From positions 1,958 to 54,554 of the forward strand of contig CAZWWC010000001.1 in the NCBI GenBank assembly GCA_964637625.1: DNA of 52,597 nt, in the 5' to 3' direction. Position numbers and translations under genes: made by a program. The notes under the pieces are model-generated. The model worked only from the letters and a program-made list of their open reading frames with translations, was not told the origin of the DNA and made no database searches. This DNA is from an uncultured Planctomycetaceae bacterium. GTDB lineage: Bacteria > Planctomycetota > Planctomycetia > Pirellulales > Thermoguttaceae. Positions 1,287 through 46,542 of the stretch are shown one piece after another; the first letter of the stretch is position 1, and the number at the start of each line of letters is the position of its first letter.

Positions 1287-3140
1287 ATGCAAGAACGCGA
1301 GGTTGCCGTCACCGTGGAGCCGTTGGGAAAGACGGTCCACGTCTTGCAGTACACGCGGTTGGTCGAGGCCCTGGCCGAGGCGGGCGTTACGATCGATCAA
1401 CCGTGCGGCGGCGAAGGGACGTGCGGGAAGTGCCGCGTCCGGATGAAGGAGGGCGCGTGCGAGGCGACCCAGGTCGATGCCGAGTGCTTCAGCGCCGAGG
1501 AACTTGGCCAGGGGTGGCGTCTGGCGTGCCAGGCCGTGATTGAAGAGCCCGCCGTGATCGAGGTGCCCGAGACGTCGCTGCTCCCGTCGCAGCAGAACAT
1601 CCTTGTCGAATCGGCCGACGGCGTTTCGGTCGTGGCCGATCCGGCCCTGCAGAAGCGCTACGTCGAGCTGGCACCGCCGACATCCGAGGACGACACGGCC
1701 GACGTGCTGCGTCTGGAGGCCGTCACCGGGCCGCTGGAGGCCGACATCGATACCTTACGGCTGTTGCCCGGCCGGCTTCGCGAGAACCACTTTCGCGGCA
1801 CGGTCGTCACCAGCGACGATGAACTGATCGATTTTGAAGCCGGCAACACCGAGGGCGAGTGTTGCGCCGTGGCCGTCGATCTCGGGACGACCACGCTGGG
1901 CGCCCTGTTGCTGGATTTGCCGTCGGGTGGGCAGCGGGCAGTCACCTCGCGGACCAATCCCCAAACCAGCCTCGGGGACGACGTCCTCTCGCGGATACTC
2001 CATGCCCGGGAACATCCCGAGGGACTCCACGAACTGCACCGCATCATCGTCGAGGCCATCGACGAAATGGTGGGGCAACTGGCCGACGAAGCCGGTATCC
2101 GCCGCGATCGGATTTACAAGCTGACCATCTCGGGCAACACGACGATGCAGCAGTTGTTCTGTCGGATCGACACCCGCAGCCTGGGCGAAATCCCGTTTGT
2201 GCCGGCCGTGGCCCGACAGATTGTGCTGCCGGCCTCGAAGCTCGCCATCCAAATCCACCCGCGAGGACGCGTCTACGTGATGCCCGTCATCGGGGGATTC
2301 GTCGGGGGGGATACGGTCTCGGGCATCGTGGCCACCGGGCTGATCGAGAGCAATGGCCCGACGCTCTTTATCGACATCGGCACCAACGGAGAAATCGTTC
2401 TGTTTGCCGAGGGTCGCCTTGAGGCTGCTTCGTGCGCCGCCGGTCCCGCTTTCGAGGGCGCCCGGATCTCCCAGGGCATGCGAGCCGCGACCGGGGCCAT
2501 CGAAAAAGTGCTCTTCGAGGACCGGCTCCATCTGCACGTGGTGGGCAACGTCGCGCCGGTCGGATTGTGCGGCTCGGCGCTGGTCGATCTGGCCGCCGAG
2601 TTGCTCCGCCACGGCGTGCTCAGTCCCGAAGGACGGCTGCTGGCCCGGGACGAACTCCCGGCGGACGTCCCCGGCGATCTTCGCCGCCGGGTCGTCGCGG
2701 ACGGCAACGGCCTGGCATTCATGCTTGTCGAGGAGTCGAAAACCGCCGTCGAGCGGCCGATTCTGGTCACCTGGCGTGATTTCCGCGAGCTGCAATTGGC
2801 CAACGGGGCGATTCGCGCCGGCGTGGCGATTCTCTTGAAGCGCGCCGGGCTGAAGCCCGAACAGCTGGAGCGCGTGCTCATCGGCGGCGGATTCGGCAAC
2901 TTCATCCGCCGAAGCAACGCCCAGCGGATCGGACTGCTGCCGACGAGCATCCCCCGAAAGCGCATTCGCTTCCAGGGCAACACGTCCCTGGCCGGGGCTC
3001 GCCTGGCCGCGCTGTCGCGGACCGCCCGAGCCCAGGCCGAACAACTCGCCCGGCAAACCGAACACGTCGATCTCTCAAGCGACCCCGATTTCCAGGACAT
3101 TTTCGCCGAGGCGATGATCTTCCCGGCGGAACAGAGCTGA
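1287..3140 (+). CDS. 2Fe-2S ferredoxin domain fused to an ASKHA/DUF4445 ATPase domain (RACo-like corrinoid-activation family protein)
   Basis: ATG follows the AGGAGGAG Shine-Dalgarno at 1272-1279. N-terminal plant-type ferredoxin cysteines are present (CGGEGTCGKCRV ... LACQ). The following region has actin/sugar-kinase-like phosphate motifs (AVDLGTTTL, FIDIGTNGE, GGGFGNF). The architecture matches the reductive activator of corrinoid proteins family as I recall it. Confidence 0.75.
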   Translation: MQEREVAVTVEPLGKTVHVLQYTRLVEALAEAGVTIDQPCGGEGTCGKCRVRMKEGACEATQVDAECFSAEELGQGWRLACQAVIEEPAVIEVPETSLLPSQQNILVESADGVSVVADPALQKRYVELAPPTSEDDTADVLRLEAVTGPLEADIDTLRLLPGRLRENHFRGTVVTSDDELIDFEAGNTEGECCAVAVDLGTTTLGALLLDLPSGGQRAVTSRTNPQTSLGDDVLSRILHAREHPEGLHELHRIIVEAIDEMVGQLADEAGIRRDRIYKLTISGNTTMQQLFCRIDTRSLGEIPFVPAVARQIVLPASKLAIQIHPRGRVYVMPVIGGFVGGDTVSGIVATGLIESNGPTLFIDIGTNGEIVLFAEGRLEAASCAAGPAFEGARISQGMRAATGAIEKVLFEDRLHLHVVGNVAPVGLCGSALVDLAAELLRHGVLSPEGRLLARDELPADVPGDLRRRVVADGNGLAFMLVEESKTAVERPILVTWRDFRELQLANGAIRAGVAILLKRAGLKPEQLERVLIGGGFGNFIRRSNAQRIGLLPTSIPRKRIRFQGNTSLAGARLAALSRTARAQAEQLARQTEHVDLSSDPDFQDIFAEAMIFPAEQS

Positions 3141-3157
3141 AGAACAAAACGTAATGA

Positions 3158-3300
3158 AGTCTCAGTAGTTCCAAGTTTGGCTGGCTGACACCTCAGCAGG
3201 TCATCCTGAGCGTAGCGAAGGATCTCGATGGCCAAGGAGATTCTCCGCTGCGCTCAGAATGACAATGCCGGATCTCAATAGAACTTGGAACTACTGAGTC
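3158..3300. repeat. Nested-palindrome MITE-like repeat, copy A (subfamily 1)
   Basis: Outer arms are ctcagtagttccaagtt (3161-3177) and aacttggaactactgag (3282-3298). Inner 27-nt arms are gtcatcctgagcgtagcgaaggatctc (3200-3226) and gagattctccgctgcgctcagaatgac (3237-3263). Its reverse complement aligns end to end with copy D at 46301-46438. Confidence 0.85.
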
Positions 3301-25965: not shown

Positions 25966-26661
25966 ATGGACATTCCGTTTGCGAGCACGGATGCCCTCTA
26001 TTGGAGTCTTCGGCGTGAGGAACTGCGTATCAGCAATGATCCCCGTTGCCTCGGGCAAGAAAACACCGCTGTGGATGATCGAAGCCTGTTCTCCATTCTC
26101 TAGTTTGGGGCCATTGTGCCTCCGCTGAGTCTATGGCGTGATATTGTTCGGTTTGTGCCTGGACAACGGTGGGTCGTGATGCAAGACAACCTGCAAATAC
26201 GGAGTTGCGGCCGTTTGGAGTCATGGCCGACAGGCACGGATACTGATTGGACACTTGGAGATGAAGATCAGCGAAAGGTGGTTCACCAGGTCCTTGATGA
26301 TAGCTTGGTGGAGGTGTGCCCGGAACGCAATCCGGTTTTGTTATTCAGCGGAGGTGTGGATTCAGGTCTGCTGGCTGCCCGTGTTGCGGCGCTCGGTTGG
26401 CGGGACGCCTTGCTCGTGAACTACAGTTTTGGAGATGCGGATCCGGAGTCCCACATGGCCGAAGCTATGGCGAAGCATTTGGGACTGCGGTTTAGGCGTG
26501 ATCATGGATTGTTGCCGGAGATTCACGAAGTATGTCCCAGCATCATCCACGTTCCATTCGTCGCCCCGCCGGTTGACTTGGAGGTTACGAGCCATGCAGA
26601 TGTAGGAATCCTCTGTTATAGCTATACTTCACTAGAGGGCATTTCAAAACGGTCATCCTGA
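25966..26661 (+). pseudogene. Asparagine-synthase-like (PP-loop amidotransferase) gene relic with an in-frame stop and 3' truncation
   Basis: The ATG at 25966 follows a GGTGAGG SD. An in-frame TAG lies at 26101-26103 and the same frame continues. It shows AsnB-like blocks FGAIVPPLSLWRDIVRFVPGQ and the PP-loop LLFSGGVDSGLLAA. Only ~95 aa follow the PP-loop where ~300 are expected. There is no N-terminal MCG glutaminase start. The frame then runs into repeat copy B. Confidence 0.55.
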
Positions 26662-26752
26662 GCGAAGCGAAGGATCTCCCCTCCGCGAAAGCCGAGATTC
26701 TTCGCTGCGCTCAGAATGACAACAATCAGAGCACCGGTTTTGAAATGTCCTC
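26635..26752. repeat. Nested-palindrome MITE-like repeat, copy B (subfamily 2)
   Basis: Outer arms are gagggcatttcaaaac and gttttgaaatgtcctc. Inner arms are gtcatcctgagcgaagcgaaggatctc and gagattcttcgctgcgctcagaatgac. It is the reverse complement of copy C with one mismatch in 118 nt (hand alignment). Confidence 0.9.
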
Positions 26753-35310: not shown

Positions 35311-35428
35311 GAGGACATTTCAAAACCGGTGCTCTGATTGTTGTCATTCTGAGCGCAGCGAAGAATCTCGGCTTTCGCGGAGGGCAGATCCTTCGCTTCG
35401 CTCAGGATGACCGTTTTGAAATGCCCTC
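35311..35428. repeat. Nested-palindrome MITE-like repeat, copy C (subfamily 2, inverted relative to B)
   Basis: gaggacatttcaaaaccggtgctctgattgttgtcattctgagcgcagcgaagaatctcggctttcgcggagggcagatccttcgcttcgctcaggatgaccgttttgaaatgccctc. This equals the reverse complement of copy B except for one base next to the central loop. Confidence 0.9.
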
Positions 35429-46082: not shown

Positions 46083-46300
46083 GCCGGGCACGCTCCGGTT
46101 GCCACCGGGCCGCCGGGCTTCGAGAAGACACCCGGCTCTCGCTGGATGGACTTCCCGCTCGCACGGAGAGCGGACAATTATGACGGTTTTGCTGGCAGAT
46201 GGTGCGGTTGACGCGCCGTCTTGGAAGGCAGGTTTTAACTTCCCCCCCAGGATAGGCGGCCCCCATGCTCGAAACCACAAATCCGTGGTAAAATACAACA

Positions 46301-46438
46301 GTCAGTAGTTCCAAATTCCATCGAGACCCGGCATTGTCATTCTGAGCGTAGCGAAGAATCTCCTTGGACAATCGAGATCCTTCGCTACGCTCAGGATGAC
46401 CTGCCGCGGTATCAGCCAGCCAAACTTGGAACTACAGA
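46301..46438. repeat. Nested-palindrome MITE-like repeat, copy D (subfamily 1, inverted relative to A)
   Basis: Inner arms are gtcattctgagcgtagcgaagaatctc (46336-46362) and gagatccttcgctacgctcaggatgac (46374-46400). Outer arms are cagtagttccaaa and aacttggaactac. It aligns with the reverse complement of copy A at roughly nine positions in ten (hand alignment, one 1-nt indel). Confidence 0.85.
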
Positions 46439-46542
46439 CAGCATATATAGTGCCCTCTCGCAGACCAGTCCGGGACACCGGGTCTGGCAACCTGGCTCGC
46501 CGAGGCGCCGCGGGCTCCAACAAAACGTTTGAAGGTGCGTTC

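What the first reader, a model, noticed from the sequence alone, without database searches (positions are those of the whole stretch)
3158..3300. Family of 120-140-nt nested hairpin repeats with a shared 27-nt core and two kinds of outer arms
Four copies (A 3158-3300, B 26635-26752, C 35311-35428, D 46301-46438) share the inner inverted repeat gtcatYctgagcgNagcgaagRatctc / gagatYcttcgctNcgctcagRatgac around a 10-15-nt loop.

The outer stems fall into two classes. A and D use cagtagttccaa...ttggaactac. B and C use gagggcatttcaaaac...gttttgaaatgtcctc.

The same two non-Watson-Crick positions in the inner stem are kept in all four copies: one C-A mismatch and one G-T wobble. The opposite strand shows the mirror-image pattern. 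This argues for constraint on the sequence itself, for example a protein or transposase binding site or a common recent source, rather than on pairing alone.

All copies are intergenic. They seed the spurious ORFs whose peptides read ...HSERSEES..., ...LRMT... and ...ILRYAQDD/ILRYAQND.... I recall peptides of exactly this type as recurrent hypothetical proteins in several phyla. If so, the core is much more widespread than this genome. That is memory, not a search result.
Basis: partly seen in the sequence, partly recalled or inferred. Interest (0 to 1): 0.65.

Follow-up and report, generated by a model that had tools for sequence, protein, structure and literature searches.

The report
Ssn-nuclease hairpin repeats, nested doublets
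The four repeats are real, and each holds two inverted copies of a 27-base DNA hairpin from a known, very widespread family (Ssn-related motifs, also called CGTC-tagged REPs) that small GIY-YIG nucleases recognise on single-stranded DNA; here the pairs are packaged inside two lineage-specific palindromic units.

Summary
There are four units and eight core arms, where chance predicts none. D is the reverse complement of A (90-94% identity) and C of B (98%).

The "conserved C-A mismatch plus G-T wobble" is misread. Positions 6 and 22 pair with each other inside one arm. Each arm is its own hairpin: a GTC tag, a 5-bp stem ATYCT/AGRAT, tandem G.A/A.G, a GC stem and a GNA triloop. In 232 arms from 120 genomes of more than 15 phyla, all seven pairs covary.

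These arms flank genes for roughly 95-aa GIY-YIG proteins. Of 80 loci chosen only by protein similarity, 59-77 have an arm within 250 nt. The protein is 47% identical to the Neisseria SsnA orthologue, which sits among NTS repeats.

So the core belongs to the published SRM/NTS family (Chenal 2025), which overlaps the CGTC-tagged REPs (Di Nocera 2013). Ssn nucleases bind that hairpin and cut just upstream of it, on single-stranded DNA only.

Three things appear new. This GA-bracketed subtype escapes the published SRM search pattern (0 of 232 arms). The doublets sit in two MITE-like shells that may carry 3-bp and 2-bp target duplications. The expansion is lineage-specific, in a Pirellulales-like planctomycete. 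No ssn gene lies in the window.

Verdict: a new member of a known kind, of modest interest.

The parts
3162..3297 (.). Unit A (A/D family): a palindromic shell TCAGTAGTTCCAAGTT...AACTTGGAACTACTGA enclosing an SRM doublet
   Evidence: About 40 contig ends per run at 3161/3162 and about 27 at 3297/3298 define the repeat boundary. Depth jumps from about 10-16 to 10^3-10^4.
3159..3161 (.). GTC, repeated directly at 3298-3300. Possible 3-bp target-site duplication of unit A.
   Evidence: Read using the boundaries. Unit D shows CAG|CAG at the equivalent places. Only two copies were seen, so this is tentative.
3199..3225 (+). SRM arm A-left (sense on +): G-GTC-ATCCT-GA-GC-GTA-GC-GA-AGGAT-CT, allele C6:G22
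   Evidence: 41.3 bits, E = 1.3e-9; fold
3238..3264 (-). SRM arm A-right (sense on -), allele T6:A22, one mismatch (G19)
   Evidence: 36.4 bits
26635..26752 (.). Unit B (B/C family): shell GAGGGCATTTCAAAAC...GTTTTGAAATGTCCTC enclosing an SRM doublet, flanked by TA|TA
   Evidence: Contig ends at 26631/26634 and 26754; depth about 5-11 outside and 10^3-2x10^4 inside.
26651..26677 (+). SRM arm B-left, allele C6:G22, apical GCGAAGC
   Evidence: 42.8 bits
26695..26721 (-). SRM arm B-right, allele T6:A22
   Evidence: 45 bits
35311..35428 (.). Unit C, the reverse complement of unit B (98% identity), flanked by AA|AA
35342..35368 (+). SRM arm C-left, allele T6:A22
   Evidence: 45 bits
35386..35412 (-). 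SRM arm C-right, allele C6:G22
   Evidence: 42.8 bits
46302..46438 (.). Unit D, the reverse complement of unit A (90-94% identity), flanked by CAG (46299-46301) and CAG (46439-46441)
46335..46361 (+). SRM arm D-left, allele T6:A22
   Evidence: 44 bits
46375..46401 (-). SRM arm D-right, allele C6:G22
   Evidence: 41.3 bits

Best explanation
**What it is.** Each 27-nt core arm, (T/G)GTC-ATYCT-GA-GC-GNA-GC-GA-AGRAT-C-T, is an Ssn-related motif (SRM, NTS-like; it also fits the CGTC/TGTC-tagged REP description).

- On one strand only, as single-stranded DNA, the arm folds into a small hairpin. It has a 5-bp basal stem, two sheared G.A pairs, and a short GC stem capped by a GNA triloop.
- The hairpin is preceded by an unpaired GTC tag and followed by a C.

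**How it works (from published work on four homologues).** An Ssn nuclease is a roughly 94-aa single-domain GIY-YIG protein.

- It binds this kind of hairpin on ssDNA and cuts a few nucleotides upstream.
- It acts neither on dsDNA or RNA nor on the complementary strand.
- In Neisseria this fragments incoming single strands and lowers recombination around the repeats.

**Arrangement in other genomes (shown here).** Elsewhere the arms flank the ssn gene itself in an arm-gene-arm arrangement about 360-550 bp long. They also occur as gene-less single arms and convergent doublets scattered between genes.

**In this window.** The four copies are gene-less convergent doublets. Either DNA strand therefore carries one readable arm.

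- Each doublet is embedded in one of two lineage-specific palindromic shells of 118 and 136 bp.
- Those shells have been amplified to roughly hundreds of copies in a Pirellulales-like planctomycete.
- Their own inverted ends and short flanking direct repeats suggest they spread as MITE-like units carrying the doublet as cargo.

**Shown versus inferred.**
- Shown here: the anatomy, the covariation, the linkage to ssn-like genes, homology of that protein to Neisseria SsnA, and high copy number.
- Inferred: that a cognate Ssn exists in this genome, that it cuts these arms as ssDNA, and how the units spread.
For: **Structure.**
- 232 arms from 120 species genomes were found, against 0 in shuffles.
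- All seven intra-arm pairs covary. For example 6:22 is CG 113, TA 100, GC 6; 11:17 is GC 205, AT 20.
- G9, A10, G18 and A19 are at least 99% invariant. G13 and A15 are conserved and N14 is free.
- Conservation stops at T0 and T26.
- A sequence-blind descriptor finds 265 hairpins against 2 in shuffles, and 258 of them are preceded by GTC.
- The apical part varies from 7 to 45 nt but stays self-complementary.

**Linkage to the nuclease gene.**
- Three arm-flanked GIY-YIG ORFs occur in three phyla, 45-55% identical to each other and matching PF01541.
- Of 80 metagenome loci picked by protein similarity alone, 59 have an arm within 250 nt and 37 have arms on both sides.
- With the general descriptor these become 77 and 55 of 80. 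Density is 6.4 per kb near the gene against 0.40 per kb elsewhere.
- The published figures for SRM are 71% and 42% (PMC11893778).

**Homology to SsnA.**
- The protein is 47% identical (E = 3e-26) to the 94-aa N. gonorrhoeae protein that lies among more than 20 canonical NTS repeats.

**Match to published determinants.**
[quoted passage not shown] These correspond to the conserved GTC and C25 here.
- The frame CGTCAT...ATC is shared with NTS and NTSvar.

**Copy number.**
- Flanks have depth about 5-16, outer shells 10^3 and core arms 10^4.

**Other.**
- No target duplication is seen at the arm borders.
- Arm orientation shows no bias relative to neighbouring genes.
Against: - **No ssn gene in reach.** No ssn-like ORF lies in the 52.6-kb window, and the rest of the genome could not be reached. 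A cognate nuclease in this organism is therefore assumed. The paper finds one in 81% of genomes with more than 200 SRMs.
- **Published pattern not matched.** The published degenerate SRM pattern matches none of the 232 arms and nothing in the window. This subtype has not been tested biochemically.
- **Folding energy unremarkable.** Nearest-neighbour DNA folding gives the proposed hairpin as the minimum, but at only -1.9 to -2.7 kcal/mol with z near 0. The case rests on covariation, not energy.
- **Competing long hairpin.** In a doublet, the 27-bp inter-arm hairpin is much more stable (-58 to -79 kcal/mol as RNA). It would compete with the small hairpins.
- **Weak evidence for how the shells spread.** Each shell family has only two copies with both flanks visible, and no empty site was found.
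Confidence: 0.8

Rival explanations
1. The 118-bp and 136-bp units are ordinary MITEs moved by a DDE transposase that recognises the outer inverted ends. The SRM doublet is only a passenger and does nothing in this genome.
For: - The outer arms are lineage-specific. They are absent from all other fetched loci and from three relatives.
- The repeat boundaries coincide with the outer arms.
- Flanking direct repeats are GTC|GTC (A), CAG|CAG (D), TA|TA (B) and AA|AA (C).
- There is no such duplication at the core arms.
- Two different shells with different duplication lengths fit two different transposases.
Against: - Only two copies per family have both flanks visible, and the boundaries were partly chosen by eye.
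- No transposase was identified.
- About half of the other A-family copies also share the C/G just outside the boundary. This could be an extension of the inverted repeat rather than a duplication.
- REP dimers inside longer palindromes are already reported for this superfamily, without any transposase (PMC3733652).
- This reading does not explain why both shells carry the same cross-phylum core. It complements the main explanation rather than replacing it.
Confidence: 0.3
2. The repeats form a REP/REPIN system mobilised by a RAYT (HUH tyrosine transposase).
For: - The architecture is the same: short tagged hairpins, inverted doublets, an extragenic position, high copy number, and no duplication at the arm borders.
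Against: - The tag is (T/C)GTC, not GTAG.
- No RAYT homologue occurs in the window or in 120 loci.
- The gene actually flanked by the arms is a GIY-YIG nuclease.
- Di Nocera et al. found no tyrosine transposase flanked by CGTC repeats.
Confidence: 0.03
3. The units act as RNA: transcription terminators, mRNA-stabilising 3' hairpins or a structured non-coding RNA.
For: - The full units fold very stably as RNA (z = -6 to -10).
- They lie between co-directional genes.
Against: - No Rfam family matches at gathering threshold, and only generic hairpin hits appear below it.
- No T-run directly follows any of the four hairpins.
- Single arms show no orientation bias relative to flanking genes (21 same strand against 16 opposite).
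- Wobble intermediates are no commoner than A.C mismatches.
- SsnA does not bind RNA in the tested homologue.
- No RNA runs were available to test transcription.
Confidence: 0.07
4. Each arm is a palindromic double-stranded operator for a dimeric DNA-binding regulator.
For: - The arm is a near-palindrome with half-sites ATYCT and AGRAT.
Against: - Both alleles (C:G and T:A) coexist within one unit, yet mixed C/A or T/G arms are rare (5 of 151). A protein tolerant of both bases would not impose that coupling.
- The apical part varies from 7 to 45 nt while staying self-complementary.
- The asymmetric GTC tag and the trailing C give the arm a strand polarity.
Confidence: 0.02

Closest known systems
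Ssn-related motifs (SRM), including the Neisseria NTS, with Ssn GIY-YIG ssDNA nucleases (Chenal et al., Nat Commun 2025, PMC11893778)
   Same: - A hairpin preceded by (C/T)GTC-AT and followed by ATC.
- The arm-gene-arm arrangement around a roughly 94-aa single-domain GIY-YIG gene.
- Hundreds of extragenic copies and a distribution across many phyla.
- The association frequencies found here (74% and 46%) match the published ones (71% and 42%).
- The flanked protein is 47% identical to the Neisseria orthologue.
   Different: - The stem is interrupted by a tandem G.A/A.G and capped by a GNA triloop, or by a variable apical stem-loop.
- The published degenerate search pattern misses every arm (0 of 232).
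- In the window the arms are gene-less convergent doublets nested in larger palindromic shells.
- Nothing is known biochemically for this subtype.
CGTC-tagged REP superfamily (Di Nocera et al., BMC Genomics 2013, PMC3733652), including Neisseria dRS3 and Rickettsia RPE-4/RPE-6
   Same: - An unpaired CGTC/TGTC tag, and a stem starting with A-T and T-A.
- A short unpaired tail.
- Mostly head-to-head dimers, often heterodimers.
- Some dimers sit inside longer palindromes. The H. neapolitanus example (GGGaaGCTT-GAAAaACC...) even resembles the B/C shell.
   Different: - Those families have continuous 8-9-bp stems with 4-5-nt loops and were found in 5 phyla.
- This subtype has a 5 + 2 (G.A) + 2 stem with a 3-nt loop.
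- It was found here in more than 15 phyla, including Planctomycetota, Acidobacteriota, Chloroflexota, candidate-phyla-radiation (CPR) groups and Bacillota.
REP/REPIN-RAYT systems and BIMEs
   Same: - Tagged ssDNA hairpins.
- Inverted doublets as the amplified unit.
- The enzyme gene is flanked by its own repeats.
- No target duplication.
   Different: - The enzyme is a GIY-YIG nuclease, not an HUH tyrosine transposase.
- The tag is GTC, not GTAG.
- The motif is nearly identical across phyla, whereas REPs are species-specific.
d(GCGNAGC) DNA mini-hairpins (GNA triloop, sheared G.A). Recalled from the work of Hirao and colleagues, not checked here.
   Same: - The apical seven bases of the arm are exactly GCGNAGC, with N free.
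   Different: - That is a physical-chemistry observation about stability, not a genetic element.
- ViennaRNA DNA parameters gave no special stability.
Bacterial MITEs (for example IS630- or IS5-derived)
   Same: - The outer shells have terminal inverted repeats of about 16 bp.
- They are 118-136 bp long and present in many copies.
- They carry possible 2-bp or 3-bp flanking duplications.
   Different: - No parent IS or transposase was identified.
- The evidence rests on two copies per family.

Membership tests
SRM / NTS-like motifs of Ssn nucleases | A 20-50-nt semi-palindrome able to form a hairpin | tested here: met
   All seven intra-arm pairs covary. Variants with longer apical stems keep self-complementarity.
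SRM / NTS-like motifs of Ssn nucleases | A conserved, unpaired upstream tag (C/T)GTC that gives the motif an orientation | tested here: met
   GTC precedes 258 of 265 structure-defined hairpins. Positions 1-3 are at least 97% conserved. All 8 window arms have it.
SRM / NTS-like motifs of Ssn nucleases | A conserved C immediately after the palindrome | tested here: met
   C25 is present in 227 of 232 arms and in all 8 window arms.
SRM / NTS-like motifs of Ssn nucleases | Flanks genes for roughly 94-aa single-domain GIY-YIG proteins, often on both sides | tested here: met
   Met in other genomes: 59-77 of 80 loci with an arm nearby and 37-55 of 80 with arms on both sides. Not observable in the window, which has no such ORF.
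SRM / NTS-like motifs of Ssn nucleases | The flanked protein is a homologue of Neisseria SsnA (the cd10448 clade) | tested here: met
   47% identity, E = 3e-26, to the 94-aa N. gonorrhoeae protein embedded in NTS repeats. The CDD assignment itself could not be run.
SRM / NTS-like motifs of Ssn nucleases | Matches the published degenerate pattern HGTCWYN(0-2)YYVSBRHN(0-5)WNVSBRGN(0-2)RNCYNB | tested here: not met
   0 of 232 arms and 0 sites in the window match, while the NTS control does match. The pattern is a search aid built from 29 genomes, not the definition. The miss marks this as a distinct subtype.
SRM / NTS-like motifs of Ssn nucleases | Bound and cut by the cognate Ssn as ssDNA only, on the sense strand only, a few nucleotides upstream | not testable with these tools
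   Biochemistry is known for four homologues with NTS-type motifs.
SRM / NTS-like motifs of Ssn nucleases | An ssn gene present in the same genome as the repeats | not testable with these tools
   Only 52.6 kb of this genome is available.
CGTC-tagged REPs | An unpaired CGTC/TGTC tag, a stem starting with AT, a short tail, and a predominance of inverted dimers | tested here: met
   There are 48 convergent doublets against 10 in other arrangements.
CGTC-tagged REPs | A continuous 8-9-bp stem with a 4-5-nt loop | tested here: not met
   The stem is 5 bp + G.A/A.G + 2 bp with a 3-nt loop.
REP/REPIN-RAYT | A GTAG tag and a RAYT gene flanked by the repeats | tested here: not met
   The tag is GTC. 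No RAYT homologue was found in the window or in 120 loci.
Rfam RNA families | A match at the curated threshold | tested here: not met
DDE-type MITE (outer shells only) | Terminal inverted repeats plus a target-site duplication of fixed length | tested here: inconclusive
   Terminal repeats are present. Flanking repeats are GTC|GTC and CAG|CAG (3 bp), and TA|TA and AA|AA (2 bp), each seen in two copies only. No empty site was found.

The most novel reading that the evidence does not exclude
The GA-bracketed hairpin (tandem sheared G.A plus a GNA or variable apical stem-loop) may define a separate, pan-bacterial specificity class of Ssn nucleases that current SRM searches miss.

On this reading the roughly 360-bp arm-ssn-arm cassette and its gene-less doublets form a self-propagating system. 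The GIY-YIG nuclease itself would drive copying, in a REPIN/RAYT-like way but with an unrelated catalytic fold. That would make Ssn the enzyme of a new kind of prokaryotic mobile element rather than only a domesticated ssDNA restriction factor.

The nested shells in this planctomycete would then be second-order hitch-hiking of that element on MITEs.
Probability: 0.15. Interest if true: 0.7.

Novelty: new member of a known kind. Interest (0 to 1): 0.35.

Why it matters
**Annotation.** These arms seed large numbers of spurious "hypothetical proteins" (VILSEAKDL, HPERSEGS, ILRFAQDD, SLRMT and similar). They also break short-read assemblies: two Logan contigs, L002 and L003, stop about 75 nt upstream of the gene next to unit A and carry that unit's outer arm 17-18 nt from their end. 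A structure-aware model of this subtype would clean up gene calls in Planctomycetota, Acidobacteriota, Chloroflexota, Bacteroidota, CPR groups and others.

**Biology.** The result extends the Ssn/SRM system to a hairpin subtype that the published pattern does not catch. It also extends it to phyla where the role of ssDNA-specific cutting is unexplored, whether in transformation, conjugation, replication or phage.

**Tool development.** Ssn enzymes are being proposed as site-specific ssDNA nucleases. A distinct, well-defined recognition hairpin with a freely variable apical part is a candidate new specificity.

Tried and rejected
- **Rfam.** Searches at gathering and at permissive thresholds gave only generic miRNA-like hairpin hits.
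- **Literature by sequence.** Searching the literature with the DNA or peptide strings found nothing relevant.
- **Literature on GIY-YIG.** Searches combining GIY-YIG with transposon or REP terms found nothing. The relevant paper turned up only after searching for "Ssn".
- **RAYT.** No homologue was found.
- **Recurrent neighbour genes.** All-against-all BLAST of ORFs from 120 loci gave no family present in more than 9 loci. The useful signal was a 3-locus cluster.
- **Orientation.** Arm orientation relative to flanking genes showed no bias.
- **Target duplication at the arm borders.** None for k = 2-8 at offsets 0-5.
- **More copies of the shells.**
  - Viral-contig scans for the outer arms found none.
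  - A protein search with the unit peptide gave a single hit whose DNA could not be fetched.
- **Extending the window.** Look-ups of its end genes found no record.
- **Empty-site test.** The nearest relatives by the RACo protein (corrinoid reductive-activase family; window gene 1287-3140) are only 77-79% identical, and synteny is lost.
- **RNA-seq.** No runs were available.
- **Thermodynamics.** Folding energy of single arms was uninformative.
- **Solved structures.** Only distant UPF0213 proteins matched (E = 0.002).
Full report
**1. The observation**

- The core pattern, allowing three mismatches, hits eight arms and nothing else. None appeared in 100 shuffles.
- B and the reverse complement of C are 98% identical over 122 nt. 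A and the reverse complement of D are 90-94% identical over about 137 nt.
- The window therefore holds two unit families, each once in each orientation.
- All units fold into long nested hairpins (z = -6 to -10 as RNA).
- The C.A and G.T positions are present in all four copies. That represents only two independent families.

**2. Re-reading the "kept mismatches"**

In a common orientation, the left arm is always GTCATCCTGAGCGNAGCGAAGGATC. The right arm, read on its own strand, is GTCATTCTGAGCGNAGCGAAGAATC. The two differences, at positions 6 and 22, are complementary to each other within one arm: ATCCT...AGGAT against ATTCT...AGAAT.

I tested this outside the window. An exact-pattern scan that left positions 6 and 22 free (Y and R) reached its 120-locus limit in a one-genome-per-species collection. 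The hits covered Acidobacteriota, Chloroflexota, Nitrospirota, Planctomycetota, Verrucomicrobiota, Bacteroidota, Bacillota, several proteobacterial classes, candidate-phyla-radiation (CPR) groups, Omnitrophota, Gemmatimonadota, Synergistota and others.

- Of 151 exact arms, 146 are C:G or T:A and only 5 are mixed.
- With up to five mismatches there are 232 arms, against 0 in shuffles. Every proposed pair shows compensatory changes:

| Pair | Main pair | Compensated pair(s) |
|---|---|---|
| 4:24 | AT 212 | GC 7 |
| 5:23 | TA 218 | CG 8 |
| 6:22 | CG 113 | TA 100, GC 6 |
| 7:21 | CG 223 | TA 4 |
| 8:20 | TA 213 | CG 10 |
| 11:17 | GC 205 | AT 20 |
| 12:16 | CG 224 | TA 2 |

- G9, A10, G18 and A19 are essentially invariant. 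G13 and A15 are conserved and N14 is free.
- On 148 distinct arms, 7 of 7 pairs change on both sides. There are 121 doubly changed cells against 32.7 +/- 12.9 in shuffles (0 of 500 shuffles as high). Slid controls are far lower.
- A descriptor that specifies only the architecture (any perfect 5-bp stem, GA, 2 bp, GNA, 2 bp, GA) finds 265 sites in 1.09 Mb against 2 in shuffles. Of these, 258 are preceded by GTC.
- Conservation ends sharply at T0 and T26, and the flanks differ between genomes.

The unit under selection is therefore the 27-nt arm, a strand-specific small hairpin with an unpaired GTC tag.

The arm is not tied to a partner. There are 116 single arms and 48 convergent doublets with 11-80-nt spacers, and few other arrangements. 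Allele combinations in doublets look random.

The nearest-neighbour DNA energy of one arm is unremarkable (-1.9 to -2.7 kcal/mol, z near 0). The structural claim therefore rests on covariation.

**3. What goes with the arms**

- No neighbouring gene family recurs in more than 9 of 120 loci.
- There is no RAYT.
- Single arms show no orientation bias relative to flanking genes (21 against 16).
- No Rfam family matches.

One small cluster stood out. In a Chloroflexota, a Gracilibacteria and a Hymenobacter locus, two inverted arms enclose an ORF of roughly 95-100 aa. The three ORFs are 45-55% identical to each other, and the ORF is a GIY-YIG domain (PF01541, E = 1e-15 to 1e-18).

The reverse test used protein similarity only. 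Of 600 candidate metagenome stretches, 576 encode relatives, and the best 80 were kept.

- 59 of 80 have a core arm (up to 6 mismatches) within 250 nt, and 37 of 80 have arms on both sides. Typically the sense arm lies 30-100 nt upstream and the inverted arm 10-60 nt downstream.
- The 21 apparent negatives carry arms whose apical part is replaced by a longer, self-complementary insert of 7-45 nt.
- With a descriptor that allows this, 77 of 80 loci have an arm nearby and 55 of 80 have arms on both sides. Density is 6.4 per kb near the gene against 0.40 per kb elsewhere.
- Complete arm-gene-arm cassettes are 357-570 bp long. Inverted-repeat homology usually stops 0-4 nt outside GTCAT. There is no target duplication at those borders.

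**4. Comparison with what is known**

This matches a published system. Chenal et al. (Nat Commun 2025, PMC11893778) describe the Neisseria NTS, CGTCATTCCCGCGMAVGCGGGAATCYRG, and "Ssn-related motifs" flanking ssnA homologues in many phyla. They report 71% of homologues with at least one SRM nearby and 42% with SRMs on both sides.

- SsnA is a 94-aa single-domain GIY-YIG protein. It binds the hairpin as ssDNA only, not as dsDNA, RNA or the reverse strand, and cuts a few nucleotides upstream.
[quoted passage not shown] These correspond to the conserved GTC and C25 here.
- In N. meningitidis the system lowers transformation by NTS-bearing DNA.
- The authors themselves note the IS-like NTS-ssnA-NTS layout and the analogy with REP/RAYT.

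The same repeats were catalogued earlier as "CGTC-tagged REPs" (Di Nocera et al. 2013, PMC3733652). Their features were a CGTC or TGTC tag, stems starting with AT, short tails, mostly head-to-head dimers, often heterodimers, and no dedicated transposase. In some species the dimers sit inside longer palindromes.

I verified the protein link directly. The arm-flanked protein is 47% identical (E = 3e-26) to a 94-aa N. gonorrhoeae protein that lies among more than 20 canonical NTS repeats.

One defining aid is not met. The published degenerate SRM pattern matches none of my 232 arms and nothing in the window, although it matches the NTS control. In this subtype the stem is interrupted by the tandem G.A.

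I therefore file the core as a member of the SRM / CGTC-REP family, of a subtype that the current pattern misses.

**5. The window's own features**

RACo is the corrinoid reductive-activase family protein encoded at 1287-3140, next to unit A. Its homologues place the host among Pirellulales-like Planctomycetota; the best named relatives are 77-79% identical. The sample is a salt-marsh metagenome. The window is a polysaccharide and cell-envelope gene cluster with all long genes on the + strand. It has no ssn-like ORF.

The arms here are always convergent heteroallelic doublets inside two shells.

| Shell family | Ends | Length | Flanking direct repeats |
|---|---|---|---|
| A/D | TCAGTAGTTCCAAGTT...AACTTGGAACTACTGA | 136-137 bp | GTC\|GTC (A), CAG\|CAG (D) |
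| B/C | GAGGGCATTTCAAAAC...GTTTTGAAATGTCCTC | 118 bp | TA\|TA (B), AA\|AA (C) |

- Contigs from four runs break at exactly these shell boundaries.
- Depth rises from about 5-16 in the unique flanks to 10^3 in the shells and 10^4 in the core arms. This implies roughly hundreds of shell copies, and a far larger community-wide pool of core arms.
- The shells occur in no other fetched locus. About 51 kb from the three nearest relatives has neither arms nor shells. The expansion is therefore lineage-specific.
- The flanking repeats suggest MITE-like transposition of the shells with the doublet as cargo. With two copies per family and no empty site, this remains tentative.

**6. Mechanism, with status**

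- Shown here: the hairpin anatomy and its covariation, the strand polarity, linkage to ssn-like genes, homology to SsnA, copy number, and the absence of duplication at the arms.
- Taken from the literature for related motifs: ssDNA-only binding, cutting upstream of the tag, and the effect on transformation.
- Inferred: that a cognate Ssn is encoded elsewhere in this genome and cuts a few nucleotides 5' of each sense arm whenever either strand is single-stranded. Also inferred: that the shells spread by a separate transposase, and that heteroallelic arms lessen perfect palindromy.

**7. Verdict**

This is a real feature and it is explained by a known family, so the novelty is modest. What is new is a subtype that escapes the published pattern, the nested shells, and a host phylum.

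Noticed in passing
L330 (Planktothrix agardhii plasmid p1, NZ_LR882964.1 18847-19131; locus 1498-1782): An Ssn-like GIY-YIG gene, 66% identical to the Chloroflexota one, has three GA-type arms nearby. It sits between a type IIL MmeI restriction-modification gene and DISARM drmA, which is a defence-island setting.
   Followed up: partly
L108 3502-4068 (Pedobacter nototheniae): There are 4.2 tandem copies of a 135-nt unit. Each unit consists of a truncated arm (TGTCATTCTGAGCGCAGC), a complete arm and a degenerate antisense arm with a shortened apical stem.
   Followed up: partly
L008, L019, L024, L033, L034, L036, L178/L181 (just upstream of full arms): Truncated 5' pieces of the arm (7-17 nt, for example GTCATCCTGA or GTCATYCTGAGC) recur a few nucleotides to about 30 nt upstream of complete arms, in several phyla. 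They may be footprints of cutting and repair or of template switching. This is unexplained.
   Followed up: no
L209-L328 (IMG/VR contigs): The exact core pattern also reaches the 120-locus limit in viral contigs, with 206 arms in 1.04 Mb. None of those loci encodes an Ssn-like protein.
   Followed up: partly
L117 3294-3729: In this arm-ssn-arm cassette the inverted repeat runs 16 nt beyond the arms (GAACCAAACACCCCCC). Other Chloroflexota arms share a CCAAAGCCCCACCCT leader, and Acidobacteriota arms share CAGGCTGCGGAAAAAC about 12 nt upstream. Lineage-specific extensions are therefore common.
   Followed up: partly
window 26116-26661 and 46396: A 181-aa ORF with no Pfam hit ends inside unit B. 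The first ATG of the 1507-aa TPR ORF lies inside the right arm of unit D. Both are probably gene-calling artefacts caused by the repeats.
   Followed up: no
window 1-52597: Every long ORF that looks like a gene is on the + strand. The region is a polysaccharide and envelope cluster containing glycosyltransferases, PGA_cap, a methyltransferase, UDP-GlcNAc 2-epimerase, an RmlA-like nucleotidyltransferase and a giant TPR protein. A RACo-type corrinoid activase lies at 1287-3140.
   Followed up: partly
window 26635-26650 / 26737-26752 compared with H. neapolitanus (PMC3733652): The B/C outer arms (GAGGGCATTTCAAAAC) resemble the 41-bp palindrome reported around all H. neapolitanus CGTC-1 dimers (GGGaaGCTT-GAAAaACC...GGTaTTTCgAAGC-gCCC). 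The comparison was made by eye only.
   Followed up: no
L329 (N. gonorrhoeae NZ_CP119140.1): This 2.17-Mb record is labelled a plasmid in PLSDB but is evidently a chromosome. That mislabelling is what allowed the Neisseria ssnA locus to be reached.
   Followed up: no
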